Translations under genes and position numbers: made by a program
From: Naegleria gruberi
Taxonomy: Eukaryota
DNA: 64,000 nt
Direction: 5' to 3' (one strand)
Assembly: GCA_000004985.1 (NCBI GenBank)
Contig: GG738915.1
The notes under the pieces: model-generated
Database searches by the model: none
What the model was told of the DNA's origin: nothing
The model's input: only the letters and a program-made list of their open reading frames with translations
Part shown: in pieces, positions 9,392-40,900 of the stretch
Layout of the letters: every line of letters begins with the position of its first letter
Position numbering within the stretch: position 1 is the first letter of the stretch

Positions 9392-12300
9392 ATGAATCAA
9401 CATTCACGTTCAACAAGATCATCATCCACTCCAACCCATAGCAATACCACCACAAGACAACCACAACAACAACAGCAACAACAATCAATTTTGCCACAAT
9501 ATAAAGATGTAATAGACAAGGTCAATGAGCCACTCTCACTCATCTACTTTGAATCGTCATCAGACGCAAAGGCTGCTAAAAGAACATTAAATTGGGGACT
9601 TTACTTTTACGAGCATGGTGAATATATTAAATCGAGAGAGGCTCTAATTAAATGTGGAGAAGTTATTTCGAAAATCAATTCTAAACTTTCTACCATTAAT
9701 AATAATAATGGCTCGACAATTTCATTATCATCAACAACATCTCAGGGAAATACAGAATTAGTACAAGGTAAGAGGAATTTTCAATGATTGCAAGTGTCAA
9801 TCAATTATAATGACAATTTAATTTACTTTAATAGTTGGAAAGGATTTACTTTATCGAATTATTCTACTTGTGGAATGTTTGGATAAGATTATGAAAGCAA
9901 AACATCAACAATCCATTGTAAAGAACCAAGCAACCAATTCACCACCTAAAACAACATCAAAACCAAATTCAACACCAACAAACAGTTCTTCTTCTAGTAG
10001 TAGCAGCACTCAGGGAACACTTTCTAGAATATCGAGTGGCATATTTTCAACAATCACGAGTAACTTTACATCTATCAAGAGTAATCTTCAGAAGGAGGGT
10101 TCCTCTTTGAATAATACTAATGGTAATAATGGTAGTAACTCGAAACTGATTCAATTATTCAACAATGTTGGAAATGTACTGAAAAAACCAAAGGAAGAGG
10201 TTGCAATACCCAATCTAGCAGACTCTTATGTACAGGATCAATATGTGTTTGTGGAATTTATAGATGAGAAGAAACCTAATGAGCAACAACAACATGTACA
10301 CAGCAATTTAACTAATTCTCCGAACGATGGAAACATCCCTCCTCTACAACAGGTCAGCTCCTCTAGGGATTCTCTCTCTAAATTACAAAAACGTTTGCAA
10401 ACTGTAATGAAAGGCTCCTCAACAACAACGAATACATCTTTACAACATCAACAACCACAACAGCAACAACAGGTAAATTTGACAGGTAGTGGTTCCTCCT
10501 TGTCAGCTTCCTCTCTTCCAGGTCCAATCAGATTATCCCTTGATGCCTTGCAAACATCAGCGTCTGCAACATCACCAAATGGAGAAGTGAAAAGAGGTCC
10601 ACAAACATCCAGACTCAAATCTTTTATTCAATACATGGAAGAGAGGAGTGGAACATGGAGTCCTGAAACAATTTCTGAGGAAGAGGTTAGGGAGATGGTG
10701 AGAGTACTCAATGAAAATTTAAAGATTTTGAGTACCTCATCAAATTACAAAACAATGGGAATTCTGGCACAAATGTACGATCAAATACGTCCCTATAAGA
10801 AGCAAGTTCTGAAAGAGCTCTCCAGTCAATCAACCAAAGACAAGAGCAAGAAGATTTTAATGTTAAAGAAAATTATTAGTATTGCATTTTCAACCAAAAT
10901 GGTAAATCACTATATTTCAAAAGAGGAAAATTATACAACACTTCAGGAAAATTTCCTTCAATATTTCGAGTTGGATCTCTTTACATTGCATTTGCTGAAT
11001 ATTTATGCAGCAGCTGAAAACTTTGATCACACAAACTTTTGCCTTTCACATCTAGTTGCTAACATTGAGCTATTTTCACAAGCAATTAATGATGTTAATC
11101 AATACCAAGTTGAGAAGAGACAAATTTACAAACAAGTGGATGAATTAATTTTTGGCCACCTCAGAAATAGAATAATCGAGTTGAAGTGGTGTTTTGGAGT
11201 TGACACGTTTGCATACGTGACTAATGATTTCGACAGTGACGCTCTCGAGTCACTAGAATTACTACTCAAGTGTCTTGATGGTTGGCTTAAAATCAAAACA
11301 CAAATGGGTGACTATAGTGTAAATAATAGACCAACAATAGCAGCCATTTTAACAGAATGTTTGGCTCATTTTGTAAGAAAATTGTACATTCTCAACAGAG
11401 AAATGATATCAAATAATTTGAAACAATCTCCTCATTTGAGAGGTTTCTTTTTGGAAGCATCTTTTGACATGAATCTCTCAACATTTGTTGTAGATGAGAC
11501 GAAACAATTGTGTTCTAGGTTTGCTTCCTACTTTGACAAGTATTTTGAAAATACTGCTCAATTTAAAGATATTGTAGCAGTCGAGTTTTCTAAACATTTA
11601 TCAGTGGAAGTTAAGGCATTCTGTCAGGAAGCTCTCAAATATCAACAGGCATGTATGGAACAAGCAAAGAAAAATAAGTTTTTGAGAGTTTACTTTAACG
11701 ACTTGAATTTGGGTGTTCTGAATAAGTTGGTGTCCCACTTTGTGACCAAGTACAGAATTCTTCAAGAACTGTCGCCATGTGTAAAAGATTTTGAAATTGA
11801 ATCTTTCTATGAAATTGTGAGTATGTGCATTACAGTTGCTACTCCAAACAGACTGAAAGATTTTTACTCAAAGGTCATGAGTATGGACACACTAGATAAA
11901 CCAATCGACAAGACAGTCCTTTATACATTCTCCTGTATAGATATGGCTAATGCAAGTCTCAAACCAATTCACATGATTTACAATTTGGACACTCTTATTA
12001 GAAATGGAAATGACAAGTATTTGAGTTTTTTAACTCTGCATTTTGAAGCTATTAGACCAACCATTTCCGAATATTTACAATTAATGCTCAATAGATGTAA
12101 ATATGAATTATCCAAAGTGCAGGGAAATGTCCATGACAGAATACGTTTAGCATGTATTGCCTTCAACAATGTCAATGGACTTTTCATGTATGCCAAAGAT
12201 ATCCTGCAACAATTTAACAGTTCAGTATGTGATCAACTGTTGGAAGACTATGACAGAAAGGTTAATCCAGAGGAAGAATCTGATCAGTTCAACATTAATA

Positions 12301-13281: not shown

Positions 13282-15529
13282 TTATTTGGTGTTTGGAGTA
13301 TCAACAAAATCCCAACGTGAGCAGTCAACAACCAATGACTGTGCCAATAATAATCTCATTTTACAAATCCTATCGTCTGGATCAATGCTAGCAACTTGTT
13401 CTAGTAGTTGCTCTGCAGAAATAGGATCAAACCTATCTCGGCAAAATAAGTGGGAAATAGCTTTCTCAAACATTTCTTTAGTTGACCGTTTCTTACAATT
13501 TTCAAAAGGTATAATTTCCATAATTTCTACGTAATTTCTCTTACCCACTACACAGATTTTCCCAATCGATCGACAACTCCCTCCCTCTCCCAGAAAAATC
13601 GGTGAACAAGAATCAGTTACACTTTTCGATACTAGAATCTTGGCATCGTAATATTTCGTCAGAGATTCTAATCGAGCAGATAAATTGACTGCATCCCCAA
13701 CTATGGTTGGATCCATTCTCTTTGACTCTCCAATCAAGCCAACTGCACATCGTCCTCTGACAATTCCACATCCTATTGAAATAGGACCAACGATTGGTGA
13801 CACACTCTCATTAAAAACCAGAACACAATTTTGAATTTCAATCGATGCTTTCAGTGCATGGCCTGGCTCTGTAAATAGGGCAATAAATCCATCACCTTAA
13901 TAAAGTTCGTTCATAAATTTCTAAATTCTCGAATGAACATACCCATATATTTATCAATATATCCACAATTTCTCCTCACAATCGGACCAACCAAAGCCAA
14001 ATATCGATTCAATAATTTGAACATTTGATCAGTTGGTAGCCTCTCACTCATTGAAGTATAATTTCGAATATCAACAAACATAATATCCAACTCCTTCTCA
14101 AAGAAATCACCATGATGCAAATCTGTCACCTTCTGCTTATTGATAATGGACATGAATTCTCGTGGCACGAATTTGTAAACCATATCCTCTTGGAGACGCA
14201 ACATTTTCTTCCAAGGTCCTAGAATAGTTTTCGAAAATAGCAACGCCACCAATGCTGCCACAAGAACCACAATTACTATAACAATGGTAAATGCAATTAA
14301 TGAATCGGTAGCATTCAAACCAATTTGATTCGAATAGTCTAATAAGACCAATCTCATTCGATCTTCCACAATCCCTAAAAGAATTCATGCACAGAGTCAT
14401 GTTAAAAAACCATTCTTCAAGTGTATACTTTGTTAAATTTTGATAATTATCCAAGACATAATCTTCCATACTCTGACAGATATTTTGCTGAGTATCATTG
14501 AGAATATTTGTAAGGAATTCTGTGTAAATTTCATTGGATGCCTGAAGAGAGAATAAGTGTCGAACCAAGATTCCCTATAATACATTTAAAGATTTTGGTA
14601 AAAGTTGTTTTTCTTACACCACAATATTCAAAATTACTTACTTTAATGACTGCTTCTTTGAATGAATCAATCGAAGCTTGAGACAAACTTCCATTCATAA
14701 ATCCAAATGTTCCATAAATTCTTCTAATTCCTCGATATTCCCTAGCTGCGGAAAGTAAGTTGAATGAATTGTGAATTATTGCAAAAGTTGGATCCAAACT
14801 TTGACTTGTTACAACTCTAATCATATCATTGATCAAAGAATCCCAATCGTTGATGTATTGGATTGTTGGTAAAAAGGTTTCGTTCGTAACATTCTCCACT
14901 TTCATTCTCCACTCTCCAACACCTTTCGAATAACCAATGACCTTTCCCAAATAATCCTCAAACAAATACCACGTCCTTTTCCACTGTTCATTAATCAAAA
15001 TATCGTTTGGGCTTACCGAAAGTGCGAAGAACCTTTCGATAGCATTGTCAGTTCGATTTCTTGCTTCAGCTAATTCAATTGTATACTGCCTCTTATGAGA
15101 ACCTAGATAAAGAGATGTGATTCCTCTTTCATTTTGCAAACAATCACCAAGTTCTGAGAGATGCATTGTCACTCTTGATAGTTTTTTAATCTCATTCGCA
15201 TGGTTCAAGTTGACCGCAGCAGAATTAATCAGTAAGGCACCAAATACTGCCATAGGAATCAAGCAAAATGCAATAATGAGGGCCAATTTAATGATGAGAG
15301 GTATTTTCTCCAAGATTCTTATTGGAAAGAAACTATTAAACAAGGATTTGTTCATTATGGATTGAGAAGTTATTTTGGATTTGTGTCCTTTCTCAGTGAT
15401 TGGAACTGTGGTTGATGGTTCCTCGAAGGTATCTGGTACAGTACCAGATATACGTTTTGCATGCAATGTTCTTTCTGCATTGTGTTCTACTTGTTGTTGT
15501 TGGGGCGTTTCAATATTCGAAACCTCCAT
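13282..15529 (-). CDS. Receptor-type class III adenylyl/guanylyl cyclase: N-terminal cytosolic tail, TM1, about 260-aa extracellular sensor domain, TM2, cyclase catalytic domain; 4 exons
   Basis: Model in plus-strand coordinates: E1 14642..15529 (ATG at 15527-15529); intron 14575..14641; E2 14472..14574; intron 14375..14471; E3 13943..14374; intron 13896..13942; E4 13282..13895. The E1/E2 and E3/E4 junctions (GTAAGT and GTATGT donors) are solid. The E2/E3 junction (donor GTATGG, acceptor TTTTAG) is needed to get from the sensor-domain frame into the frame that encodes TM2, IAFTIVIVIVVLVAALVALLF. It is phase-consistent but tentative. Cyclase motifs: DIMFVDIRNYTSMSE, CGYIDKYMG, GDGFIALF, GPISIGCGIVRGRCAVGLIG and GDAVNLSARLES. 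Total is about 678 aa. Confidence 0.75.
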
Positions 15530-16440
15530 GTTTTTTTTTGTTGGAAGAGTAGTACAAGGTTGAACGAATCAAGAAGGTTTCCTCGTTTGTGTGAGTATTT
15601 TCCATGTTGTGCTTACAACATCCATGACTGTGAAGTTCCAAAATCGATGTCTGAATCTTGCAAAATGGGAAGAGATTACAACATTAATTTGTGTAGGTTT
15701 GATGAAAAGGAAAAAAACGCTCAATCTAAATGTTAATTTTCACACAAAAAGGGACAAGATGTTACCCAATATTTATCCCAGGGTTTCAAGTTAAATTCAA
15801 TTTATCTGAGAAATGTCAAATAATTCATATGTTTATATTCTCAACAAGGAGAAATGTAATCATCGATAATAGGTTCAATGCATCGAATAAATCACCACCA
15901 TGAATACATTTTAAAAGTTTTCATCAATCAGACACGCAAATCGAGAATAAATTTTGCAAGAGTGTTTTGTATTTTTGTAATGGCAAGCACCTTTTCAAGA
16001 ATATTACCCAATTGATGATCATAGTAATCAATGGTATCTTAATTGATGTGAGCAAACATTAGAGAATGAGTAATTTACCAACATAAAATCAATGCTATTT
16101 GTTCATTGTTTTCAACGTGTTGACTTATCTGACATGTCAAGCTGCTTAATCATCTTTGTATTGAATTTAAATTGATATGCTCATTGGATATAACCTCAAG
16201 AGGACCCGCCTTCTTCCGTTTGCTGGATTCTCCCTTCCATTCAATATTGGCTATTATTTCCATTCGGATTGTACTAAATCTGCCCTTAATATATTTACCC
16301 AAATTTCTTATTTTCAATGCTAATCCTAGCCCGAGGAAGAGGTCAATCTTTTTGTCAGCTGGAACCTCAATCAATAATAGGAGAGGTAGAATATTCATAT
16401 CCTCACAAAGAGGAGAAGGGCAATCTATAATTGTGCTCTC

Positions 16441-17790
16441 ATGAAAAAGAAAATGAATCCATTTGCCTTGCTTGATTTCCATTTGCCTCATAGATTTTCC
16501 TTACATGGTACGGAATCAAAGTATTTTGATCAGGTGCATGTTACCAAGGCCAATGATGAACATACTACTCTACAGGCAGTTGTTGGTGGTGATTCACCAA
16601 CTTGTTTAAAAGAAGAACAATCTTTATGTAATACTAATAATAATAATGGCGGAAATTGCTCCCCTTGTAATACTATGACCAATATTAGAAATAATACATT
16701 AAATAATCAAAGTGATGGATGTTGTCTCACTGAAGAAGACTCTGAAATATTGAATTGTTACTACAGTTCATCCATGTTTCTTCATGTGATCGCAAGGCAA
16801 GAGCTTGAACGTTTCTTACAAGATTCATCATCCAATTCCTCAAAGGCCAACACTCTGGAAATGATAGAAATGATGACCTTGTATTATTCCATCAAGGCAA
16901 CTTGTGAACTCCAGATGGGACGAATGGACAAATATGAAATCTCGGGAATGAAGGCAATGGAGAATCTTGTCAAACTTTCAAGTACAAACTTGGCGATTGC
17001 TGGAAGCTACCTTAATATGTGCTTGCTTGAATTGTGGAATGATAGATTTGATATTGCAAAATTGTATTTTGCAAAGGTTATGACCTTCAAACCATACTTT
17101 GAGAATGCATCGGAAGGACAGTATGAGTACAAATTATTGAAAGATGACCTCAATATCTCAGTCAAGTTATTGGAGTATACTCTATTCAATGCTGATGTTA
17201 ACAATCTTCATCATTTATTGTTTGAAAGGTTTCTTGTAAATTTACCAACTCTCTTTTCGTATTATAGAACTGGGCAAGCGCTCATTAATGAATGGAACCA
17301 CATTCTAAAGAATCCTCACCTTATCAATTCATCAAATTGTATGCAAGTTCATATGCTGATATTGACACTCTTGAGGGATTGTAAAAAGTATGAAGAAGAT
17401 ACAAAGGGACGATCAGAAAATCTCACTTTACTGTACGACTTTTTGGAAAGTGGGATAACATTGGCTCTGTTATCCAAATGCTCTGAAAAAACGCCCATGA
17501 TTGAGTATACCATTGAATCAAGTGCAAAGAGAATTGTCAAGTCAATTAAGAATCCAAATTTTGAATCTGCTCCATTTGAAGTGATCATTTATCTTTCATT
17601 TGCTGCAGAGCATCACTTGAAAAGGATTCTACAAGGTGTTTTATCAAGAGACTCGATGAATTATGTTGAAATGCTTCGAGATACACTCAATGCATACAAA
17701 TCTCTTCAATCCAGATTTAAAATAGCCAATTTTTACTATTATGGGGGAGTATTCCAACAAGTGGATTTATACTTCTGTAATAAAGCGTAA
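16441..17790 (+). CDS. Paralog A of a tandem pair: putative transcription-regulator-like protein that lacks the canonical Zn2Cys6 cluster
   Basis: 449-aa ORF with ATG at 16441; MNPF begins at 16453. It shares with the downstream gene the N-terminal MNPFxLLDFHL, the blocks LYYSIKATCExQMG, YLNMC, LPTLFSY, LKNPHLI[NS]S[ST]NC and NP[KN]FES[AM]PFE, and the C-terminal YYGG[IV]F. It is Cys-containing but has no CxxCx6Cx5-9CxxCx6-8C pattern. Confidence 0.75.
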   Translation: MKKKMNPFALLDFHLPHRFSLHGTESKYFDQVHVTKANDEHTTLQAVVGGDSPTCLKEEQSLCNTNNNNGGNCSPCNTMTNIRNNTLNNQSDGCCLTEEDSEILNCYYSSSMFLHVIARQELERFLQDSSSNSSKANTLEMIEMMTLYYSIKATCELQMGRMDKYEISGMKAMENLVKLSSTNLAIAGSYLNMCLLELWNDRFDIAKLYFAKVMTFKPYFENASEGQYEYKLLKDDLNISVKLLEYTLFNADVNNLHHLLFERFLVNLPTLFSYYRTGQALINEWNHILKNPHLINSSNCMQVHMLILTLLRDCKKYEEDTKGRSENLTLLYDFLESGITLALLSKCSEKTPMIEYTIESSAKRIVKSIKNPNFESAPFEVIIYLSFAAEHHLKRILQGVLSRDSMNYVEMLRDTLNAYKSLQSRFKIANFYYYGGVFQQVDLYFCNKA

Positions 17791-18006
17791 ATTATCCAAT
17801 TGACTACAGTTCCTTAATCTCTATAATAAAAATATAACCATACAACCAATTGAGTTAAGTGTTTTGTTTTGGGGCGAAGGACTTTCCTCCAATTAAAATT
17901 TCATCCTGAAACCTGTACAACCGATCCCTTATCACCATTGATCAATGATTATTTCCAAGATTGAAACTCTTTCATCTGCCTTAATCAAAAGTGTGGAGGC
18001 TTTTAA

Positions 18007-19719
18007 ATGGTTTGTTTACCTTCCTTATTAAATCAACCATTTGAAAAAAAATCAATGAATCCCTTCCTAGTGCTCGATTTCCACTTATCGGATGAGAATT
18101 TGTTCTTCAATCCTAACAATTTTCAGCCGGTAACCTTTGCAAATAACTGTACTTTTATTCCACAATTACAACCTCTTCAGACTCAGCCTCAATATATTAC
18201 TTCAACAACAGCATCAATAACTAATCACAATACTTCTATTAATCAACATCCTAATAATATCCAACAACAACAACTCCATCACAACAAGAATGGTTTCAAC
18301 CAACAACAAATACCTTCCTCATTCCAGAACGACTCTGTCAGTAGTTCCACTTCCTGCGATCCGGCCACTACACATGGAGGAAGCCGAAGCAACCACAACT
18401 CTGTTACAACAAATCAAACTGCTCTTGAGAATGTAGCAGAAAATGGCACATCTCAACCTTCAGAAGAGAACGCTAACTGTGATAATGCAGATGGAACCAT
18501 TGCTCCAATATCTTGTGATGCATGTCGTTCTAACCATCGTCGATGTGATCGTATCAGACCTTCATGTCAAGCTTGTAAAATAAGAGGAATCCCATGTAAC
18601 TATAGTATGAACTTTAAGAGAAGAGCCAAGTTTATTAACAATAACAGATTGAAGGATGAAGATGTTGCAATTTTGGATGTTTATTACACAGAGTCTGGAT
18701 ATCACATGGTTTCAAGGACAGAGTTGGAACAATTCTTGTTAGAATCTTATAAGTGTAACGGCTCTTACACAACACAAGATATGAAAGAGATGATAGCCCT
18801 GTATTATTCAATTAAAGCAACCTGTGAGTGTCAAATGGGTCAAATTGACAAGGCAGAGTTATCCGCAAAGCAGGCAAAGGAGTATCTTTCCAAAGTATTT
18901 GATTGCTATACCAGTATGAAGGTTGCTGGAACCTATCTCAACATGTGCTTTTATGAACTGTGGTTTGAGAGGTTACACACAGCCAAGTTTTACTTTCAAA
19001 CTCTACTCTTCTTTAAAGAAGCTCTTGAGAACTCAAAGGAAGAAACAAAGAATTCCATTAGAGAGCATCTAATAATTACAATCACCTACTTGGAGGAGAC
19101 CATATTTAACATTCAGGATAAGAAGAACCTTCATGAGAGAACCTTCGACAGGTTTTTGCTGACACTCCCAACACTCTTCTCCTATTTGAAAACTTCAGAT
19201 TGTATGTTTGGTAGTGACTGGGATTATTATTTGAAGAATCCACACCTAATTGACTCTACGAATTGTGTACAGGTTAATACACTCCTTCAAAATCTATTGA
19301 GAGAATGTAAGAGGTATGAACAGAATAATTTTGGAGGAAATCCAGTTCTGGATTTGTACTATGATGTCATGGAGAGTGGTTGTACATTGGCACTGTTGTC
19401 AAAAACTAAGGAAATGAATTCAATGATGGATTATGTCTTGGAGAGAAGTGCTACTACTATTGTAAATTCGATTAATAACCCTAAATTTGAATCAATGCCT
19501 TTTGAGATTCTTCTCCACATTTCATTTGCTGCAGAGTATCATTTGAAAAAGGTGAGAGAGGGCATATTTATGGGTAGTATGAATAATTGTGATTATATTG
19601 AAATGTTGAGAACTGAATTAAGAGCCTACCAAACCCTACAATCAAGATACAAGATTGCCAAGACTTACTTTTATGGTGGAATATTCAAGAAATTGGATGA
19701 CTATTTCAATAATCAATAA
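18007..19719 (+). CDS. Paralog B: fungal-type Zn(II)2Cys6 binuclear-cluster (GAL4-like) putative transcription factor
   Basis: 570-aa ORF. The Zn2Cys6 motif is CDACRSNHRRCDRIRPSCQACKIRGIPC (about nt 18517-18600), followed by a basic linker. The region after that is homologous to paralog A. The N-terminal part is Q/N-rich. Confidence 0.75.
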   Translation: MVCLPSLLNQPFEKKSMNPFLVLDFHLSDENLFFNPNNFQPVTFANNCTFIPQLQPLQTQPQYITSTTASITNHNTSINQHPNNIQQQQLHHNKNGFNQQQIPSSFQNDSVSSSTSCDPATTHGGSRSNHNSVTTNQTALENVAENGTSQPSEENANCDNADGTIAPISCDACRSNHRRCDRIRPSCQACKIRGIPCNYSMNFKRRAKFINNNRLKDEDVAILDVYYTESGYHMVSRTELEQFLLESYKCNGSYTTQDMKEMIALYYSIKATCECQMGQIDKAELSAKQAKEYLSKVFDCYTSMKVAGTYLNMCFYELWFERLHTAKFYFQTLLFFKEALENSKEETKNSIREHLIITITYLEETIFNIQDKKNLHERTFDRFLLTLPTLFSYLKTSDCMFGSDWDYYLKNPHLIDSTNCVQVNTLLQNLLRECKRYEQNNFGGNPVLDLYYDVMESGCTLALLSKTKEMNSMMDYVLERSATTIVNSINNPKFESMPFEILLHISFAAEYHLKKVREGIFMGSMNNCDYIEMLRTELRAYQTLQSRYKIAKTYFYGGIFKKLDDYFNNQ

Positions 19720-19913
19720 ATAATCCTTACTATTATACTATTGTATCATGAGGATAAAGCACAAGTGTTCGAATATACAATCCAATTCAAGTTAGGCCGT
19801 ACGATTTGGTTTCCCTTCCTGTTCCGCCCAAAATCAGATGTGCACAATTATAAATTCCATTCCCTTATTACTCCTTCCAGCTCATCAAAAGGAATAAAAT
19901 CATCTTAAAGAAA

Positions 19914-22122
19914 ATGCACAAGGAAGAGGCAGTGTTTGATATTTGTGAAGATAATGTGAGCACACCAACCAGTCCTAAAGCTATTCAGCTTATTGAAACG
20001 TCACCCTCATCAACAGAAGAAGTAAAACAATCCATACCAGTAAAAACAGCCGCGCAATCAAATGAACCAGAGGAAGTTTTAAAAGATCCAAATGGACCTA
20101 CTTTACACTTTTATGATCATTTTCTGATCTTTAAGTGTTTTGGATTTTGGACATGGATATTCATTATTTTGGGAATCTTGGGCTCTATGGGTAATGGTGT
20201 TGTGGCGTTAATATTTCAATTCATATTCGGTGATTTGATCAATATTTTCCAACCTGTGAATGGAGTTATGCCATCAGCTACAATAATGAGAAATGCCATC
20301 TCAGATGTTTGTCTCAAATTTACAGGAGTTGCTATTGGAAGTATGGCTTCCAGTTTCGTATCTCAATTTTTCAATGGGTGGGCCAGTGAAAGAATTGGAA
20401 TCTCTCTCAGACAGGCTTATTTCAATGAATTAACAAGACAAGAGGTTGCATTCTTTGATATTAAGAAAACAGGTGCCCTGACAATTGCACTCAGTGAAGA
20501 TGTTGGAAAGATCCAAGAAGCTTGGACCAGAAAAATTTCTGGTGTCATGCAACACACTAGTACCATTCTCATTGGGTTGATTCTGGCCTTTGTCAGTAGT
20601 TGGCAAATGACTCTCGTTACCATTTCAACCACTCCACTCATGATTTTGATTGGTGTGGTTATGGGAAAATTGACAGAAAAGATTAGTTTTAAATCAGGTG
20701 AAACTATCGCAAAGAGTGCCTCAAAGGCAACCGAAGTTGTCTCCTCATTCAAAACAGGTAAGTTGAAATTCCAATATTTGTTCTAAAAAATTCAACCTAG
20801 TTAAAAGTATGGGGTGCGAAGAAAAGGAACAAGCTCAATTCGCTAACATTTTGAAAAAGCTTCATTTGTATGGCATATTAAAAGCTGGCGCACAAGGTGC
20901 TAGTTTGGGGTCTGAAAGCTTCATCATTTGGGGTACCTGTTCATTGGCCTTTTGGTATGCGTAAGTAGCAGTGTAATTTTAAACCTCAATTTAACAATCA
21001 ACAGAGGTAACCTGGTTGTAGATGGAACTATTGTCATTGGAGATTTGGTAAAAGTTTTTGGTTTGTTAATTTTCAGGTAAGTTAAATTTCCAATATTTGT
21101 ACCTTAGACCTATTCTATAAGTACAGTGTATTTTCAATGGCATTTGTTTTTGAAATGTTACCTGACATTTTCAAGGCCTTGAGCTGTCACAGAGCTCTAC
21201 TTATGGTTATGAAAAGAAAACCAGCCATTCCATTTAAGGGTGGAAAGAGTTTGAGCGATAATGTAGGATTGGTTGAATTTAAAAATGTCAAATTTTCATA
21301 TCCATCTCGTCCAAATGTTACTATTCTTCAAGATTTTACACTTAATGTAAAGACAGGTCAATCAATTGCTATGGTTGGTCCGTCAGGATCAGGAAAATCG
21401 ACCATTGTTGGCTTGTTAGAAAGATTCTATGATCCAGAAGAAGGAGTTGTTTCAATTGACGGTGTAGATATTAAGGAAATTGATCCAAAGTGGTTGCACA
21501 AAAATGGTAAGTATCTTAAAAAATTATTCCTTATCAAGTATTTAAAACTATAGTTGGTATTGTTACACAAGAACCAGTATTGTTCGCTTGTACCATTAAG
21601 GAAAATATTGCTTATGCAGTTGGTTTGGAAAATGTAACTGATAAAGATATTGAACAAGCTGCCAAAGCTGCCAATTGTCATAATTTCATTTTGGATCTTC
21701 CTAATGGATACAATACATTACTCGGTGAAAAAGGTGTTTCTCTTTCAGGTGGCCAAAAGCAACGTGTTGCCATTGCAAGAGCTCTCTTACAAAATCCTAA
21801 AATTTTGCTTTTGGACGAAGCAACTTCAGCTCTCGACACTGAATCTGAAGCTCTTGTTCAAGCTGCTTTGGAAATGTTAATGAAAGGAAGAACCTCCATC
21901 TCCATAGCTCACAGACTTTCAACAGTTCAAAATTGTGATGTCATTTACGTTCTCGTTAAAGGAGACATCAAAGAATCAGGCACTCACAAGGAATTGATTG
22001 GCATTGAGAATGGTATTTACAGAAAATTAGCAGAAAAACAAATGGGAATTGATCAATCTTACGAATCATCCAATGAAAATGTTGGTGATACTTCTTCTCC
22101 AAGTGATTTAAATCAACAATAA
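19914..22122 (+). CDS. ABC transporter, ABCB-type half-transporter (transmembrane domain + nucleotide-binding domain), 5 exons
   Basis: Exons are 19914..20757, 20801..20960, 21005..21076, 21127..21506 and 21554..22122. Introns are 43, 44, 50 and 47 nt; all four donors are GTAAGT, and phases are consistent. Transmembrane-domain features typical of ABCB: ...AFWYA and GxLVxxGxxxxGDLVKVF. Nucleotide-binding domain: Walker [11 protein letters not shown]-loop IVTQEP, signature [15 protein letters not shown], Walker [13 protein letters not shown] and H-loop SIAHRL. About 674 aa. Confidence 0.85.
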
Positions 22123-31985: not shown

Positions 31986-34900
31986 ATGAGAGAAACAAAG
32001 AGATCCCCATCCGCTGCTTCTGCCCTTGATGAGAGTGCAACGGTGCAGGGACTTAGTAGATTCAAACACTTTCATAGTGCAAGTGCTCCCGAATCTTTAG
32101 GAGTAGATAAACTTGAGGTAAGTGAATTCAAAACGAGGAAGTAACCAACAAGCTCTCTTATAGTACAAACCTAAGAATACATACAACGTTAGACCAAAAA
32201 CTACAATACAACCTCAAAAATTAAAGATACCTAAGGAATTACAACAATTTAATCATTTAGACCCATCTAGAAACACAAGTACAAAGAAGAGGTAAGAATA
32301 TCATAACTGAAATCAATTATTAAAAAATGATTTAATTAAACAGAGAAACTAGTACTACAACAACAAAAAGAGCATCAGCACAAGAAAAATCAAGAAAAAC
32401 ATTGGAAGAAAGACCACCAAAACAAGCCAAATATACTACCAGTGTCAGTAGATTGTCTGAATTGAACTCTTTGAATGTTAGTGCTAGAATCGGAGCCCTC
32501 AAACAAATGGATGTTGAAGAAGGAACAATTGATGTAGCTAGTTACCCAAGACTTTTAATTATTAACAAGGAATTTTCGGAAGAGGAAAAGGATATCATCA
32601 TGAGTGGGTATGTATTAATAAGAGGAATTTAATTAATAATTATGAATTGAACAGACAAGAGATTGAAAGCAAGAGCAAATTTCTACCATTAGAATTGTTT
32701 GATGACGAAGAAATATTTGAAAAATTCACTATTGAAGATCTTCTTTCGAATAGCTACATTGTACAGTCTAAGTTTTATACTGGCGCCAAATCAGCTTATG
32801 AAAAATCTTATAAGGTTTGTTTCATATTATTACTAGTGATCTAATCAAAAAACAGTGGGCTCGTTGCAGAGTTCTTGAATATAATCCTGATGAAAGAAGT
32901 TTCCTTATTGAATGGTTAGATTCTCCAAACACAACTGGATATGAAATTACAACAACTGATGAAAACAATGACTCTCCAACCACTACTAATGGCAGAAAAC
33001 AAAAATGGGTAAAAAGATTGAATTTATTAGTTCATGGAGATGAAACTTTTGAATTGAGAATAAGATTTGCACAAATGAGAAGAAAAAAGTTTGAAGAGAA
33101 AATGTTTTATTATCTTCAAATTGACAAGACTATTACTGATGACTTGATAGATATTACCCCTTTTGAAAAACAAATTTATGAAAAAATTTTGAAGCTTGTT
33201 GCAAATGAATCCCAATTCCTTTCTAGGCATGTTCCAGTCATTGAAAAATATGTTGATGAAGCAAAAGAGCATTACAAAATTTCAATGAAAGAGGCTATAT
33301 TTTTGTATTATCTGAACAGTAGAGAAGAATATGAAAAGTATGAAAAATATTTATGGTGCAAAGAAGAGCTAAGGAAAAATAATATGACAGCACCATGTTC
33401 TGGTGTTATTGAGGTACCAGCCTATAACTATCAAGCCATTCACGATATTATTGAACAAAATATCTTTTATACTCACCTTGATTTGATAACAGCAATGCAT
33501 AATATTCACTCTCAATTATTTATTTTGCTTAAAAGCTTAAAGGAAGATGGAAAGAGTATGGACTTGATTACAACACAAAAATGTGATACTCCTTGTGAGT
33601 TAGGATCATTTTTGGAGCTCCAAAGAGATACATTACAATTATCCATGAAAAGAATTAAGGAAGATTGGTGCCAAAAAGTTATTTCGATAGTGCAAAATGA
33701 TCTTGATAGATTTTTCAACTTTTTCGAAGATGATATTGAAAGATTCGAAAGCTCTAGAATGAAGAAGTTCTTGAGATTGACCAATTTCGTTCTTTCAGCT
33801 CAGTTAAGAGATTATGTTTTTGATGAACTTCACAAGTTGAGAGACTTTATAATACCTTATAGATACAGAGGATCGGATCATTTTGATGCCAATGAAGTTT
33901 CTGGATTTGAACCTTTATTTATTATCAAGATTGTGGAGAAAATTGAAAATGGAGAATCTAAGATTGCATTCGATCCTCCACTCGAATCTGTATTAGATGG
34001 CTTACGACAAATATTTTATGGAGTGCTGGAGGAAACCAATTTTATTCCAGGTATAGGAGAGACTCTCTTCCCATTATTGACTCTTAAGCCAGAACAATAT
34101 TGTATAAATAACTTAGAACTAAGATTAGAAAAAGACACAAAAGGTTTATGGAAAGATATTCAAGAAGTAATTACTTCCAACTTTAGAGAACCAGAAATGT
34201 TGCTCTCCTTATATAAGGGATATGAACATTGCTTAAAGTTGGATCCAGTCGCGTTTGCTACAGAATTTTATAATGAACATGTTGGCAAAACAGAAATGTC
34301 AAAACTTCTTTCAATCTTTAGAGAAGAATTGGCAAGACTTAAAAGTGATTCAGAAGAAGTGTATAACATTTCAACTGATAATGTCAATTTCAACTTATTG
34401 CGAGTAGATTGCAGTGGTATCAAAAACTCACTATATTTGAGAACCGATGGTACTGCAAAAGAGTTGATGAAATTAATATCAAAATGGAGTACTGAAGAGA
34501 GTAGTAAAATTACTCAATCTTTCCGAGATGTATATAGCAAAGTTCAAATCATACCTCAAACTGCTGAAGAACTGGACTCTTTAAAGAAGTACTTAACAGA
34601 TTGCACAAAGGAAATTGAAAGATTACAATCTCAATTCGCAACAGTCAAATCAAGTGTCCATTTACTCTCAGATTTTTCATTCAACCTCGACATGGATGAT
34701 TTTACAGTATTTGTAGATACTCATTCATGGCCAAAGAAGGTTTATGGACTTCTTGAGGATAGTACTATTAGACTTGAAGAAGACAAGAGAAAATTCATGG
34801 ATGAATTACAAAGAGATATCAATAATCTTCTCAGCAACTTGGATTTATATGAAAAGATTATTGAACGATTTGCTGTTTTCGATGATTTAGAAAAGACAGA

Positions 34901-37900
34901 CCAATACTATGAAAAGGTAAAGGATATGGAATCTAAATTGGAGGAAGCAAAGAAAAATTCCGAATTGTATAATAATCGTGAAAGAATGTTTAATATGAAC
35001 ACAACAGAATTTTCCAAACTGAAGGACTTGGAGAAGAACTTTAAACCTTACTTTGACTTATGGAGAATTGCTTATGAAAAGGCACAAAACTTTCCAAAAT
35101 GGAATGAAGGCACATTCATGAATTTGGATGCCAAGTTTATTGATGAATCATTAAGTATGTGGCAATCTACATTGAAAAATTTAGAAAAGAACTTGCAACC
35201 AAAGGACGAAACTGCAAGAATTATTACAAGACAAGTGAAGAAGGAGGTTGTAGCATTCTTACTTCACATGCCACTTATCAATGCCTTGAGAAAGGATGGT
35301 CTTAGACAAAGACATTGGCAGAAAATTGCAAAACTTCCACTTGAATTTGGAAAATCCACAGCCCAATTGGATATTGAAAGTATTAATATCATGAACTTGG
35401 GAGACTTTACAAAGATTGGTTTCGAAGAAAAACCAATTTTAGAAAAGATTATTGATATTTCTACATTGGCCGAGAAAGAAGCAGAAATTTCAAAGAACCT
35501 CGAAAAAATGTACTCTGCTTGGAAGAATGTCAATTTCCATCTTGAGAAATACGGTATTACATACAAACTTGTTGAATTGGATGAATTACAAGTCCTTCTC
35601 GATGAACAAATTGTTTTAACTCAAGGTATGAGAGCTTCTCCTTACGTAAAGGAACTTGAGACTGAAGTTATTGCTTGGGAAAACAAATTATTAGAAAGAC
35701 AAGATATAATGACCGAATGGATTAAGTGTCAAGTTGCTTACTTGTATTTGGAACCAATCTTCAGTTCTCAAGATATATCAGCACAGCTTCCTGATGAAGC
35801 AACCAAATTCGGTATGGTTGACAAAATGTGGAAGAATGTTATGGAAGTTACCAATAAGGTCAAAGTTGTCGCTCAAGTTGTTTCTGATGAAAATATGAGA
35901 GATAACTTTGAAACAGCCAACAAGAGATTGGAGCAAATCCATTTTGGTTTGAAACAATATTTGGAAACCAAAAGAAGAGCCTTCCCAAGATTTTACTTTT
36001 TATCAGATGATGAATTGTTGGAAATCCTTTCTGAAACTAAGGATCCACTCAGAGTTCAACCCCACTTGAAAAAGTGTTTCGAAGGTATTGAAAGGTTAGA
36101 GTTTGACAAGGAAGGAAAAATCGTTGCCATGCTCAGTAAACAAGGTGAGCGTATTCCATTCCAAAAGCATGTAATACCAGCAGAAAAGAATGGCAGAGTT
36201 GAGTTGTGGTTGTTAGAAATTGAAAATGAAATGAAGGGTAGTTTGAGACACTCTATTGAACAATCCATCAATGCATATGCTGCTATTGCTGGTAATATTG
36301 ACAAGAGAGGTCAATGGATTCTTGCATGGCCTGGTCAAGTGGTATTGACTGTAAGTCAACTTTTCTGGACAAGAGAAGTAGAAGAATCTATCAAAGCACA
36401 AGGTGTTAAAGGAGTTCAAAGATATTACTCCAAGATGACCAAACAACAAAAATCTCTTATTGAACTTGTAAGAGGAGAAAATTTAACTGCTTTGCAAAGT
36501 ATCACACTTGGTGCAATGGTCGTTATTGATGTTCACGCAAGAGATGTTGTTGCTGGTTTGGTGAAAGAGGCAGTCGGAGATATTTCAGACTTTGAATGGC
36601 AAAGTCAGCTCAGATATTATTGGGAAGATGTTAAAGATATCAAGGATGGAAAGAATCAAAACCAAATTGTTGTTAGACAAGTTACTGCTGAAATTAACTA
36701 TGGATACGAATATTTGGGTAATCAAGAAAGACTTGTCATTACACCTCTTACTGACAGATGCTACAGAACACTTACAGGTGCTCTCCAATTATTTAAGGGC
36801 GGTGCTCCTGAGGGTCCTGCTGGTACAGGTAAAACTGAAACTACAAAAGATTTGGCTAAGGCTATCGCTAAACATTGTGTAGTTTACAACTGTTCAGATG
36901 ATCTTACCTATGAGTCTATGGCTCAATTCTTTAGAGGTTTGGCATCAAGTGGTGCTTGGTCATGTTTTGACGAATTTAACAGAATTGAATTGGATGTCCT
37001 TTCTGTTGTTGCCCAACAAATTCAAACTATCCAACTTGCTGTAGCTAGTAGAGCCACCAGATTCTTCTTTGAAAATATGGAAATTAACATGAATCCAACT
37101 TGTGCTATTTTCATTACAATGAATCCTGGTTATGCTGGAAGATCTGAACTTCCTGATAACTTGAAAGCTCTCTTCCGTCCAGTCGCTATGATGGTTCCTG
37201 ATTATGCCTTGATTGCAGAAATTTCATTGTTTTCTTATGGATTTTTGGAAGGTCGTAAACTGGCTAGAAAGATTGTTTCTACTTATAGATTATGTAGTGA
37301 ACAATTGTCATCCCAAGATCACTACGATTATGGTATGAGAGCTGTTAAAGCAGTATTGGTAAGAGCAGGTTCATTAAAGAGACAATTTCCAGATCTTAAC
37401 GAAGAACAACTCATGTTAAGAGCATTGAATGACGTAAATCTTCCAAAATTCGTTTCTGCTGATATCCCATTGTTCAACGGTATCATCAAGGATTTGTTCC
37501 CAACTACAGAACATCAAAAGGTTGACTACTCTGCTCTTGAAAACGCCCTTATTCAAACATGTGCTGAAATGAATCTTCAACCTGTTCCTTACTTTATTCA
37601 AAAGATTATCCAACTTTATGAAATGATTATTGTAAGACACGGTTTGATGCTTGTAGGTTTCCCAATGTCAGGTAAAACAGCTTCCTATATTGTTTTAAAG
37701 TCTGCTTTGGAGAAATTAGGAGAAAAGATCAATCTAAGAGTCTTATCACCAAAGGCAGTTTACGGTGGAAATCTATACGGTTATAGAGATACAAAGACCA
37801 AAGACTGGAAAGATGGTGTTCTTGCTCTTCACTTCCAAAAGTTGAGTACACTTGCAGAAAAGGAAAGAAAATGGCTCATGTGTGACGGTCCTGTTGATGC

Positions 37901-40900
37901 TATTTGGATCGAATCTATGAACACAGTTTTGGATGACAACAAGAAGCTTTGTTTAACATCTGGTCAAATTATCAAAATGGGTGAAAACATGAACATGATG
38001 TTTGAAGTCCAAGATTTAGCTGCTGCTTCGCCTGCAACAGTTTCCAGATGTGGTATGGTTTATTTGGAAGCCGAAAAGCTTGGTTCTTGGGAGCCTTACC
38101 TAGCAAGTTGGCTGAGCAGTAAGGAATTCCCTCAAGCTCTTAGAGAATCAAAAGATTTTGAAGAAGTGACAGAATTATTTAAAACATTATTCTCCACTTT
38201 CATTCCTCCTGCTATCAAAATTTTCAAGTCTCACTTTATGGCCAAAGCATATGTTAGAGTTAAAAGTGATGCCATGTTGGTGAATTCATTGATTAACATT
38301 TTGCAAAGCTTGATGGATGAATTTGCAGATCCAAAAGTGATCCAAAATTACATTAAGGACAAGTCAATTATTCTTGAATGCCTTTTCCAATTTGCTTTAA
38401 TTTGGTCAGTTGGTATTGTTTCTGTTGATAGAGTTAAATTTGATCAACTTTACAGAAACATGCTGGAAGAAAGGGCAAGAAATAAGGTCTACAAATTCCA
38501 AATACCAATGCCAGAAAAGCCAAACACACTCGTTTTCGACTTTGTGTTTGACAAGAAGAGTAGAAAATGGGTTGAATGGACTGCCTCAGAATATGCTCCT
38601 AAATTTGCTGTTTCACCAACAGAAGAATTTAGAAATATTATTGTCCCAACAATGGACACTATTAGATTCCAATTCATTCTTAAAACACTTCTCGACCACG
38701 GTAAGCAACCATTATTTGTTGGCCCAACAGGTACTGGTAAAAGTGAATATGTAAAACAATTTTTACTTAAACTTGGAGCTGGTTCAAGTGAAGAAAAGGA
38801 ACAAAATAACGAACCAAAGTCAAACTTCCTTCCTGCCTTTATCAATTTTTCAGCCACCACTACACCAAGTCTTATTCAAGATATTTTGGAATCCAAGCTC
38901 ACAAGAAGAAAGCAAGGATATATTGGTCCACCAATAGGAAAGAAGACAATTATTTTTGTCGATGACCTTAACTTGCCAACATTGGATGATTATGGTGCAC
39001 AACCAACCATTGAATTATTGAGAGAATGGCAAGACAGAGGAGGCTGGCATGAAAAATTCAGCAAGCAAGCAGCCTTTACACACGTAGTTGATGTATTGTT
39101 TGTTTGTGCTATGGGTCCTCCTGGAGGTGGTAGAAACGAAGTAACTCCAAGATTTATTCGTCACTTCAATGTTATTGGTCTTACCTCATTTGACAACCAA
39201 ACATTGACCACCATTTTCTCAGATATTATGGATTGGTTCCTCTCATCCAATAGCATTAATACTATCAGTAAGATTTTGGCTAGACAAATCGTTGTTGGAT
39301 CCATCAATTTATTTAATAATGTAATTGAGCAATTCAGACCAACACCAGAAAAATCTCACTATACTTTTAACTTGAGAGATTTATCAAAGATTTTCCAAGG
39401 TGTTTGCAGTGTTGGTCCAAGACTTGATGGATCAGAATTGGAGAAGGTATCTCTAGTCAAGATTTGGGCCCATGAGGCCACAAGAGTTTTCCACGATAGA
39501 TTGATTAATGAGCAAGACAGAGAGAGTTTCTACCAATTACTTGATAAGGAACTTCAAATTGGTGAAATCAAATATATCATTGAAGAAACACCTTTTGACT
39601 ATAGAAATACTCTCTTCACTTCTTTAACTCATGATTCTTGCGAAAGATTCAAGGAAGTTGTCTTGAACAAGACCTCCAATAATCCAAAGGTTGCTGATAT
39701 TTCCAAACTACATAATATCTTGTCATCTAAATTGGAAATTTACAATGATTCACACTCAAAGATGGATCTTGTATTATTCAACTTTGCTATTGAACATATT
39801 GTTAGAATTGTAAGAATTATAACTCAACCTGGTGGTAATGCTCTCCTTATTGGTGTGGGTGGCAGTGGTAGACAAAGTTTAACCAAACTAGCTGCTTTTG
39901 CTGCTGAATACAAATTGTTTGGTATTCAATTAACAAGATCTTTCACTGTTTCTGAATGGAAAGATAAGATGAAAGAATTGTTGATTAGTGTTGGTGGTGC
40001 CAAGAAAACTCAAACTGTCTTTTTATTCAATGATAACCAAATCAAGTATCAAGAATTTTTAGAAGATATTAGCAGTATTCTTAACACTGGTGAAATTCCT
40101 AACCTTTTCGATAGAGATGAATATAAGGATATTTGTGAAAGTCTGAGAGCACATGCAAGAAATGAAAACAAAGGACAAACACCAGAAGAATTATACAACT
40201 TCTTTGTTGATAGATGTAAAGAATGTTTGCACATTGTTCTTTGCATGAGTCCAGTTGGTGAAAATTTGAGAAATTATTTGAGAATGTTCCCTTCATTGGT
40301 AAATTGTTGTAACATTGATTGGTTCAGCTCTTGGCCAGACCAAGCCCTTCATGCTGTAGCTCAAAAGTTTATCAAGAGCATTAACGAAGTAACAGATGAA
40401 GAATTGGATAATAATGTAGAAATACCAAAGGATGATGCATTCGAAAAAGATTTTGACAAGTATGTCGATATATGTGCCTACTTCCACAATAGTTCCACCG
40501 AGCTTTCTAAGCAATTCTTATTCAAGATGAAGAGACATAACTATGTTACACCAACAACTTATCTTGGTCTATTGAAGAACTTCTCCTCACTTGTAAAAGA
40601 AAAGAGAACCGAGTTGCAAACTTTGAGAGGAAAATTCGAGTTGGGTCTTCAAAGAATTGCTGAAACCGATAAGGATGTTAATGAAATGCAAAAAGAATTG
40701 GAAATTTTGCAACCAAACTTGATTGAACTTTCCAAACAAAATGAAGAATTATCCAAGAAGATTGAAATTGAATCTCAAAATGCAAACGAGAAGGCTAAAA
40801 AGATTGAAATTGAACAAGAAGAAATCAACGCACAAGTTGCTAAGAATGAACAAGACAAGGTATATTGTATGGAAGAATTAGCTCAGGCTGAACCAATTTG

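What the first reader, a model, noticed from the sequence alone, without database searches (positions are those of the whole stretch)
16441..19719. Tandem duplicated paralogs of a Zn2Cys6-type regulator in which the upstream copy has lost the zinc cluster
Two adjacent same-strand genes, 16441..17790 and 18007..19719, share the N-terminal MNPFxLLDFHL and at least six collinear conserved blocks over about 330 residues: LYYSIKATCExQMG, YLNMC..ELW, LPTLFSY, LKNPHLI.S.NC, NP.FES.PFE..L..SFAAE.HLK and YYGG.F. Only the downstream copy has the fungal-type binuclear cluster CDACRSNHRRCDRIRPSCQACKIRGIPC. The upstream copy has unrelated Cys spacing in the equivalent region. A GAL4-like DNA-binding domain outside fungi is itself noteworthy. 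The pair may be a DNA-binding factor together with a partner or decoy that heterodimerises but cannot bind DNA.
Basis: seen in the sequence. Interest (0 to 1): 0.55.

Follow-up and report, generated by a model that had tools for sequence, protein, structure and literature searches.

The report
Naegleria zinc-cluster regulator with DNA-blind twin
Two neighbouring Naegleria gruberi genes are an old tandem duplicate of a Gal4-type regulator; the upstream copy lost its DNA-binding zinc cluster where it stood but is still kept by selection, so it is a real though fairly ordinary DNA-blind paralogue of unproven role.

Summary
The window is Naegleria gruberi. Copy A is NAEGRDRAFT_74540 (CDS 16453..17790) and copy B is NAEGRDRAFT_74541 (CDS 18055..19719). 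They are 48% identical over 383 aa (E 1e-114). Only B has a Zn2Cys6 cluster. A keeps a decayed relic at the same position (C-x7-C-x9-C-x2-C, net charge -2 against +10 in B). No hidden cluster exon exists anywhere in the 64 kb.

A is not a pseudogene. Its ORF is intact, dN/dS is at most about 0.2, and it is present in a second strain. It does evolve about 2.5 times faster than B.

The duplication is specific to the N. gruberi lineage. N. lovaniensis and Willaertia carry a single copy at the syntenic site, always followed by the same ABCB half-transporter.

A Gal4-type domain in Naegleria is not new: 71 such proteins were reported in 2014.

The partner/decoy idea is plausible by analogy but was not tested here. 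Modest interest.

The parts
16330..16338 (+). CCCGAGGAA element 123 bp upstream of the ATG of A. It is a candidate ancestral cis-element containing a CCG triplet.
   Evidence: CCCGAGGA is expected 0.32 times per 64 kb. The same element lies 83 bp upstream of the N. lovaniensis TF and upstream of the ABC gene in N. lovaniensis and Willaertia. It is absent upstream of B and of the ABC gene in N. gruberi.
16453..17790 (+). Copy A, NAEGRDRAFT_74540 (XP_002670429, 445 aa). Single exon, no DNA-binding domain.
   Evidence: Exact match to the RefSeq protein. ORF seen. No Pfam family.
16453..16485 (+). N-terminal motif MNPFALLDFHL of A.
   Evidence: Shared with B and with the N. lovaniensis orthologue MNPFMLLDFHF.
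16591..16698 (+). Relic of the zinc cluster and linker in A: DSPTCLKEEQSLCNTNNNNGGNCSPCNTMTNIRNNT.
   Evidence: It aligns in frame with the cluster of B. At most 3 of the 6 Cys can be placed, and there is a gap of about 14 aa. The spacing is C-x7-C-x9-C-x2-C. The wider cluster-plus-linker stretch (GDSPTC...SDGCC, nt 16588..16725) has net charge -2 with 2 K/R, against +10 with 12 K/R in B. KRRAK has become IRNNT.
16726..17787 (+). All-alpha C-terminal domain of A, with a middle-homology-domain-like fold.
   Evidence: 49% identical to the B domain. It keeps 80 of the 116 positions invariant in the four cluster-bearing relatives. The positions it lost carry mostly conservative changes.
17791..18054 (.). 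A-B intergenic region, which holds the promoter of B.
   Evidence: 10 differences in 264 bp between two strains, against 5 in 553 bp of A coding sequence. No CCCGAGGAG-like element at up to 1 mismatch.
18055..19719 (+). Copy B, NAEGRDRAFT_74541 (XP_002670430, 554 aa). A Zn2Cys6 plus helical-domain transcription factor.
   Evidence: Exact match to the RefSeq protein. Pfam Zn_clus hit.
18103..18501 (+). Low-complexity N/Q/S/T-rich region of B, predicted disordered.
   Evidence: pLDDT 25-33. Between strains, all 9 non-synonymous differences and the codon indel of B fall in aa 85-143.
18514..18597 (+). Zn2Cys6 binuclear cluster of B: CDACRSNHRRCDRIRPSCQACKIRGIPC.
   Evidence: Regex, Pfam, family HMM.
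18598..18648 (+). Basic linker of B (NYSMNFKRRAKFINNNR). No coiled coil follows it.
   Evidence: KRRAK is conserved in the family. The AF2 model shows no helix between aa 198 and 216.
18649..19716 (+). All-alpha C-terminal domain of B, 15 helices.
19914..22122 (+). ABCB-type half-transporter gene with several exons. It is the conserved downstream neighbour of the TF.
   Evidence: ABC_membrane and ABC_tran. Orthologues at 66-87% aa identity lie directly downstream of the TF in N. lovaniensis and Willaertia. Only the TF and this gene match between those loci and the window.

Best explanation
What it is (shown). B is a Gal4-type regulator of Naegleria gruberi. It has an N-terminal MNPFxLLDFHL motif, a disordered low-complexity stretch, a Zn2Cys6 cluster with a basic linker, and a 356-aa all-alpha domain with the fold of the fungal middle homology domain. 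A is a tandem duplicate of B that arose in the N. gruberi lineage. Substitutions and a deletion of about 14 aa destroyed the cluster and basic linker of A in place. A kept the N-terminal motif and the helical domain, and selection has preserved it for a long time.

How it most likely works (inferred). B binds CGG/CCG-type sites as a dimer held together by the helical domain, as Cep3 does, because no coiled coil follows the cluster. One of its targets is probably the ABCB half-transporter gene that has stayed next to it in three species. A cannot bind DNA and has lost the only basic, NLS-like patch. It therefore acts through protein contacts of its helical domain, most likely by pairing with B. 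Such a pair carries one DNA-binding domain instead of two, which would weaken or retune binding to dyad sites or alter nuclear entry. Because A sits behind the candidate ancestral promoter element, it may form a feedback loop on B.
For: Paralogy: 48% identity, E 1e-114.

Loss of the cluster in place, with no hidden exon. The charge of the cluster region drops from +10 to -2.

Lineage-specific duplication: single copy at the syntenic locus in N. lovaniensis and Willaertia. An NJ tree groups A with B in 83% of bootstraps and A, B and N. lovaniensis in 100%. Shared derived residues number 8 for A+B, 1 for B+N. lovaniensis and 3 for A+N. lovaniensis.

A is constrained. Its 445 codons are open although dS between A and B is saturated (pS 0.71). 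dN is 0.41, so dN/dS is at most about 0.19. The dN branch lengths are 0.30 for A and 0.10 for B. The relative-rate test gives 78 A-unique against 31 B-unique sites, p 7e-6. A keeps 69% of the family-invariant positions. Between strains, divergence is 0.9% in A coding sequence against 3.8% in the adjacent intergenic DNA, and the A-B-ABC order is kept.

Precedents for dimerisation through this domain: Cep3 and PnPf2. Precedent for one paralogous Zn-cluster factor depending on another for nuclear accumulation: Yna1/Yna2.

Link to the transporter: conserved two-gene block and a shared CCCGAGGAG-like element.
Against: No direct evidence shows that A and B interact, or that either is expressed. The dimer interface could not be mapped or modelled. 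Sequence methods do not connect the helical domain to fungal MHDs: 0 of 73 family members hit Pfam Fungal_trans, and PDB profile searches found nothing. The Cep3 analogy therefore rests on a predicted fold. A evolves 2.5-3 times faster than B, which also fits a shift to a different partner or function. The promoter element was found by eye, is short, and in N. gruberi lies only upstream of A, so the feedback idea is weak. The link between the TF and the transporter rests on synteny alone.
Confidence: 0.5

Rival explanations
1. A works independently of B. It would be a helical-domain-only protein that has taken up a different partner, ligand or non-transcriptional role. For example, it could titrate a small molecule or co-regulator that the helical domain recognises, or act in the cytoplasm.
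Against: Most changes at invariant positions are conservative and scattered rather than concentrated in one surface. The N-terminal motif shared with B is retained. Tandem linkage to B is kept in both strains.
Confidence: 0.3
2. A is a decaying duplicate, an unprocessed pseudogene that has not yet acquired a stop codon.
For: It has lost its DNA-binding domain and evolves faster than B. Between the two strains, the covered part of A shows 3 synonymous and 2 non-synonymous differences, too few to prove constraint alone.
Against: The 445 codons are open in a 35% G+C genome, although synonymous sites between A and B are saturated. dN/dS is at most about 0.19 overall, with an upper bound near 0.3 on the A branch. 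All indels relative to B are in frame. 69% of invariant positions are kept. Coding divergence between strains is four times lower than in the flanking intergenic DNA.
Confidence: 0.05
3. A still binds DNA, either through a zinc-cluster exon that the gene model misses or through its degenerate four-cysteine relic.
For: In fungi most apparent MHD-only proteins are gene-model errors (CeGAL, PMC10141177). In this family other members that look DBD-less are indeed truncated models: P0012 and P0017. A keeps four Cys in the relic.
Against: A is collinear with B in one ORF from the conserved N-terminal motif to the stop, so there is no room for an extra exon. Only one cluster is found in six frames of 64 kb, by regex and by family HMM without filters. 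The relic has the wrong spacing, lacks the basic residues and scores nothing in Pfam at E<=1.
Confidence: 0.03

Closest known systems
CeGAL family: fungal Zn2C6 plus middle homology domain transcription factors (Gal4, Cep3, Pdr1 and others)
   Different: It is not fungal. All named members come from Heterolobosea: Naegleria, Willaertia and Acrasis. The helical domain is not detected by Pfam Fungal_trans or by PDB sequence profiles. There is no coiled coil after the cluster and no C-terminal acidic tail. The conserved short motif sits at the N-terminus.
Genuine MHD-only proteins of fungi
   Same: A is the helical domain without a DNA-binding domain, the class that the CeGAL study found to be exceptional once gene-model errors are removed.
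   Different: Here the loss can be seen directly, as an in-frame relic beside an intact tandem sister copy. The gene-model explanation was tested and excluded.
Paralogues of dimeric transcription factors that lack a DNA-binding domain (Id/Emc among HLH proteins; plant microProteins such as LITTLE ZIPPER). This comparison rests on my own knowledge.
   Same: A paralogue keeps the interaction domain and loses the DNA-contacting part. The expected effect is the formation of pairs that bind DNA poorly.
   Different: The protein family is unrelated. A is full-sized rather than small. Its interaction with B is not shown.
Paralogous Zn2Cys6 pairs that work together (Yna1/Yna2 in Hansenula; Oaf1/Pip2 and Pdr1/Pdr3 in yeast, the latter two from my own knowledge)
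   Same: These are duplicated zinc-cluster factors that heterodimerise, with one partner governing nuclear accumulation or activity of the other (Yna1/Yna2, PMC4559421). Pdr1/Pdr3 control ABC transporters, which echoes the conserved ABCB neighbour here.
   Different: In those pairs both partners keep their zinc cluster. Their ABC targets are full-size PDR transporters and are not adjacent to the regulator genes.

Membership tests
Zn2Cys6 binuclear cluster DNA-binding domain (PF00172) | Six cysteines spaced CX2CX6CX5-12CX2CX6-8C | tested here: met
   B has CDACRSNHRRCDRIRPSCQACKIRGIPC at 18514..18597. This row refers to B only.
Zn2Cys6 binuclear cluster DNA-binding domain (PF00172) | Pfam score above the gathering threshold | tested here: met
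   B scores 31.4 bits against a threshold of 21.
Zn2Cys6 binuclear cluster DNA-binding domain (PF00172), copy A | Six-cysteine pattern or a Pfam or family-HMM match | tested here: not met
   A has C-x7-C-x9-C-x2-C only. No Pfam hit at E<=1. No family-HMM hit at E<=10. Net charge -2.
CeGAL (Zn2C6 plus middle homology domain) | Sequence match to the MHD (Pfam Fungal_trans PF04082 or PF11951) | tested here: not met
   No hit in A or B at E<=1, nor in any of 73 family members at E<=0.01.
CeGAL (Zn2C6 plus middle homology domain) | All-alpha MHD fold as in Cep3 | tested here: met
CeGAL (Zn2C6 plus middle homology domain) | Zinc cluster N-terminal to the helical domain in one polypeptide | tested here: met
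   In B the cluster is at aa 154-181 and the helical domain at aa 199-554 (RefSeq numbering, counted from the ATG at 18055). 46 of 73 family members carry Zn_clus.
CeGAL (Zn2C6 plus middle homology domain) | Common descent with the fungal family, as opposed to convergence | tested here: inconclusive
   Fold and architecture agree. No sequence-level link was found. Profile-profile comparison against fungal MHD alignments could not be run.
DBD-less dominant-negative paralogue (Id-like logic) | Lacks the DNA-binding part but keeps the interaction domain | tested here: met
   The cluster is lost and the helical domain kept at 49% identity to B.
DBD-less dominant-negative paralogue (Id-like logic) | Physically pairs with the DNA-binding paralogue and lowers its activity | not testable with these tools
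   No complex prediction or experiment was available. There are only precedents for MHD-mediated dimers.
Pseudogene | Disrupted reading frame or neutral evolution (dN/dS near 1) | tested here: not met
   The ORF is intact. dN/dS is at most about 0.19. Coding divergence is lower than intergenic divergence between strains.

The most novel reading that the evidence does not exclude
The Zn2C6 plus middle-homology-domain pairing, regarded as the signature of the largest fungus-specific transcription factor family, also exists in Heterolobosea. There it forms a family of about 80 sequence clusters that sequence models do not recognise. Within that family, the A/B pair would be a naturally evolved regulatory module. 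A DNA-blind paralogue, driven by the ancestral autoregulatory element, feeds back on the DNA-binding copy, which controls the ABCB transporter that has remained its neighbour across genera.
Probability: 0.15. Interest if true: 0.6.

Novelty: new member of a known kind. Interest (0 to 1): 0.36.

Why it matters
There are three modest points.

First, this is a clean, verified case of a Gal4-type factor losing its DNA-binding domain while the rest stays under selection. In fungi most such cases turn out to be gene-model errors.

Second, the helical domain that accompanies many Naegleria zinc clusters has the Cep3/MHD fold. The whole two-domain architecture, not only the zinc cluster, is therefore shared between fungi and Heterolobosea. 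That bears on the open question of whether this family is ancient or was transferred horizontally.

Third, the regulator has stayed next to one ABCB half-transporter in three species. This gives a concrete, testable target for a class of Naegleria regulators whose roles are unknown, as Scazzocchio noted in 2014.

None of this is surprising enough to change current views.

Tried and rejected
- **Hidden or split zinc-cluster exon for A.** A regex over six frames of the window and a family HMM without filters found only B. Rejected.
- **A-like gene next to the orthologues in N. lovaniensis and Willaertia.** tblastn and ORF listing over +-10 kb found none. The N. lovaniensis upstream neighbour is an unrelated 374-aa gene beside a DDE_3 transposase.
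- **Sequence link of the helical domain to known families.** Pfam and PDB profile searches with 5 and 15 sequences gave nothing meaningful.
- **First AF2 model of full-length B from a 5-sequence alignment.** It was too poor (pLDDT 58.7) and Foldseek returned only weak TPR-like hits. It was superseded by the domain model. The afdb50 library was not available.
- **Other DBD-less family members.** P0012 and P0017 proved to be truncated or mis-spliced gene models. They are not evidence for a recurrent DBD-less class.
- **Closer relatives of A for an unsaturated dN/dS.** Two metagenome scans found nothing. Exact-protein look-ups for A and B found no contigs. The third word-index protein search added little.
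- **dS between A and B.** It is saturated, so dN/dS values are upper bounds only.
- **Literature search for the gene identifiers.** No paper mentions them.
- **Rfam and tRNA scans of the window.** Empty.
- **CGG/CCG dyads in the promoters.** No convincing dyad was found, only the single CCCGAGGAG-like element.
Full report
**Source and identity.** The window has about 35% G+C and split, eukaryote-style genes. The protein of ORF A, read from its MNPF methionine, is identical to XP_002670429 (NAEGRDRAFT_74540, 445 aa). That of ORF B, read from MNPF, is identical to XP_002670430 (NAEGRDRAFT_74541, 554 aa). Both are 'predicted proteins' on one 260-kb scaffold of Naegleria gruberi. No paper in the library names either gene.

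**The observation.**
- Both ORFs are uninterrupted and lie on the + strand.
- They share 48% identity over 383 residues (E 1e-114), plus the N-terminal MNPFxLLDFHL.
- Pfam finds the Zn2Cys6 cluster only in B: 31.4 bits against a threshold of 21. It finds nothing in A even at E<=1.
The true starts are 16453 and 18055. These match the RefSeq models. In a second strain, a 1-bp indel at 18044 also puts the upstream ATG of B out of frame.

**Is the cluster really gone from A?** Yes, on three grounds.
- First, A is collinear with B in one frame, from the conserved N-terminal motif through to the stop. A missing exon has no place to sit.
- Second, the six-cysteine pattern occurs once in all six frames of the 64 kb, in B. 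An HMM built from 47 family clusters and run without filters on every ORF piece of at least 12 aa hits only B (E 1.5e-16). Nothing near A reaches E 10.
- Third, A holds a relic at the right place: ...SPTCLKEEQSLCNTNNNNGGNCSPCNTMTNIRNNT.... Its end (PCNT) aligns with the last cysteine of B (PCNY).
  - The protein and DNA alignments disagree on which other cysteines are homologous. Either way, at most three of the six ligands remain and about 14 residues are deleted.
  - The relic has spacing C-x7-C-x9-C-x2-C.
  - The cluster-plus-linker stretch (GDSPTC...SDGCC) has two basic residues and net charge -2. The equivalent stretch of B has twelve and +10.
  - The family-conserved KRRAK after the cluster has become IRNNT.

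**Is A alive?**
- Synonymous sites between A and B are saturated (pS 0.71) while dN is 0.41, so dN/dS is at most about 0.19. Three-point dN branch lengths are 0.30 for A, 0.10 for B and 0.16 for the N. lovaniensis orthologue.
- A evolves faster than B: 78 A-unique sites against 31 B-unique sites, p 7e-6.
- A still keeps 80 of the 116 helical-domain positions that are invariant in the four cluster-bearing relatives. The losses are mostly conservative and scattered.
- An ENA contig that is 99.1% identical over 4.4 kb shows the same A-B-ABC arrangement in a second strain. Divergence is 5 in 553 bp in A coding sequence, 10 in 264 bp in the A-B spacer, and zero non-synonymous changes in B from the cluster onward.
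- A long-dead gene would not keep 445 open codons at this divergence in an AT-rich genome. The pseudogene reading is therefore unlikely.

**Origin.**
- The close relatives are one protein each in N. lovaniensis (55% to B) and Willaertia magna, and a second N. gruberi locus, all with clusters.
- At the N. lovaniensis and Willaertia loci there is one copy only.
- NJ trees of the helical domain group A with B in 83% of bootstraps, and A, B and N. lovaniensis in 100%.
- Shared derived residues favour A+B by 8, against 1 and 3 for the alternatives.
- A is thus a tandem duplicate made in the N. gruberi lineage. Saturated dS shows that this happened long ago.

**What is the shared C-terminal domain?**
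- An exhaustive HMM search of 1.84 billion representatives with this domain alone gave 81 clusters at E<=0.001. Every member with a source name comes from Heterolobosea: N. gruberi, N. fowleri, N. lovaniensis, Willaertia and Acrasis.
- Of 73 longer members, 46 carry Pfam Zn_clus and none matches Fungal_trans.
- Members that seemed to lack a cluster were fragments or faulty models. P0012 starts at the methionine just after the cluster of its N. fowleri counterpart. P0017 lacks four cluster residues that its near-identical twin P0088 has. A is the only verified DBD-less member.
- With a 15-sequence alignment, AF2 gives a confident 15-helix model (pLDDT 87.9, pTM 0.85).
- Foldseek also ranks a CBF3-complex chain first, with TM 0.62 against 0.36 or less for the rest.
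- Cep3 is the only solved middle homology domain, and it dimerises through the first half of that region rather than through a coiled coil. B likewise shows no helix between the cluster and the domain.
- B therefore has the 'CeGAL' architecture in fold and domain order, though not detectably in sequence.

**Context.**
- B is followed 195 bp downstream by an ABCB-type half-transporter (ABC_membrane plus ABC_tran).
- The same transporter, at 66-87% identity, follows the orthologous regulator in N. lovaniensis and Willaertia.
- Within +-10 kb of those loci, nothing else matches anywhere in the 64-kb window. This is a conserved two-gene block in otherwise rearranged surroundings, which suggests a functional tie. 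That is an inference.
- A CCCGAGGAG-like element contains a CCG triplet, and its 8-mer core is expected 0.32 times per 64 kb. It lies upstream of both the regulator and the transporter in N. lovaniensis and in Willaertia. In N. gruberi it lies only 123 bp upstream of A. This is suggestive, but it was found by eye and is short.

**Mechanism.**
- Shown: B has all the parts of a Gal4-type DNA-binding regulator. A has lost the DNA-binding and basic parts but keeps the motif and the helical domain under selection.
- Inferred: B acts as a dimer formed by the helical domain, and A acts through that same domain. The most likely mode is pairing with B to give complexes with one DNA-binding domain, or altering B's localisation.
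- Precedents are MHD-mediated dimers in Cep3 and PnPf2 and partner-dependent nuclear accumulation in Yna1/Yna2.
- I give this about 0.5. An independent new role for A gets about 0.3, a pseudogene 0.05, and residual DNA binding 0.03.

**Comparison with what is known, and novelty.**
- Zinc clusters outside fungi are long known. [quoted passage not shown]
- DBD-less relatives of dimeric factors are a familiar theme.
- What may be new here is small in scale:
  - a verified in-place loss of the cluster;
  - the fold-level identification of the Heterolobosean partner domain as MHD-like;
  - the conserved regulator-transporter pair.
- I rate it a new member of a known kind, interest about 0.36.

**Limits.**
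- There are no expression or interaction data.
- The structure is predicted from a shallow alignment.
- dS is saturated.
- N. gruberi loci of other family members could not be fetched.
- Metagenome scans found no closer relatives.

Noticed in passing
window 18055..22122; L001 10001..13949; L002 10001..14044: The zinc-cluster regulator and the ABCB half-transporter downstream of it form a conserved same-strand gene pair in N. gruberi, N. lovaniensis and Willaertia magna. Nothing else within +-10 kb of the other two loci matches the 64-kb window.
   Followed up: partly
window 16330..16338; L001 9918..9926 and 11636..11644; L002 9673..9681 and 11822..11830: A CCCGAGGAG-like element (at most 1 mismatch) lies upstream of both the regulator and the ABC gene in N. 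lovaniensis and Willaertia. In N. gruberi it lies only upstream of the DBD-less copy A. It is a possible binding site or ancestral promoter element.
   Followed up: partly
window 18259..18435 (B aa 85-143): The low-complexity N-terminal region of B is hypervariable between two N. gruberi strains, with 9 non-synonymous changes and one codon indel. The cluster and helical domain (aa 169-570) have no non-synonymous change.
   Followed up: yes
proteins P0012 (NAEGRDRAFT_73153) and P0017 (N. fowleri FDP41_010721): These are apparent DBD-less or cluster-defective family members in public annotations. They look like gene-model errors. P0012 starts at the Met just after the cluster position. P0017 lacks 4 cluster residues that are present in its twin P0088.
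   Followed up: partly
L004 10001..15218 (N. fowleri VFQX01000007.1): This is a second same-strand tandem of two members of the family, from different subfamilies. The downstream gene carries a canonical cluster. The upstream gene model, P0017, shows only a 4-residue-shorter, sub-threshold cluster here, and its near-identical twin P0088 on another contig has an intact one. Tandem duplication therefore recurs in this family.
   Followed up: partly
window 13911..15529 (-): An ORF with a NIT (nitrate/nitrite-sensing) domain sits beside an ORF with a class III cyclase-like motif (FVDIRNYTSMSE). Together they may form a NIT-domain cyclase gene split by an intron, directly upstream of A on the opposite strand.
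   Followed up: no
L001 6431..7501 (-): A DDE_3 transposase gene and an unrelated 374-aa gene occupy the position upstream of the N. lovaniensis orthologue, where N. gruberi has copy A.
   Followed up: no
L002 8071..8538 and 19267..19725: Two Barstar-domain (PF01337) genes flank the Willaertia locus. This is an unusual domain for a eukaryote.
   Followed up: no
window 32817..42575 (+): A single very long open reading frame of 3252 aa. It was not examined.
   Followed up: no
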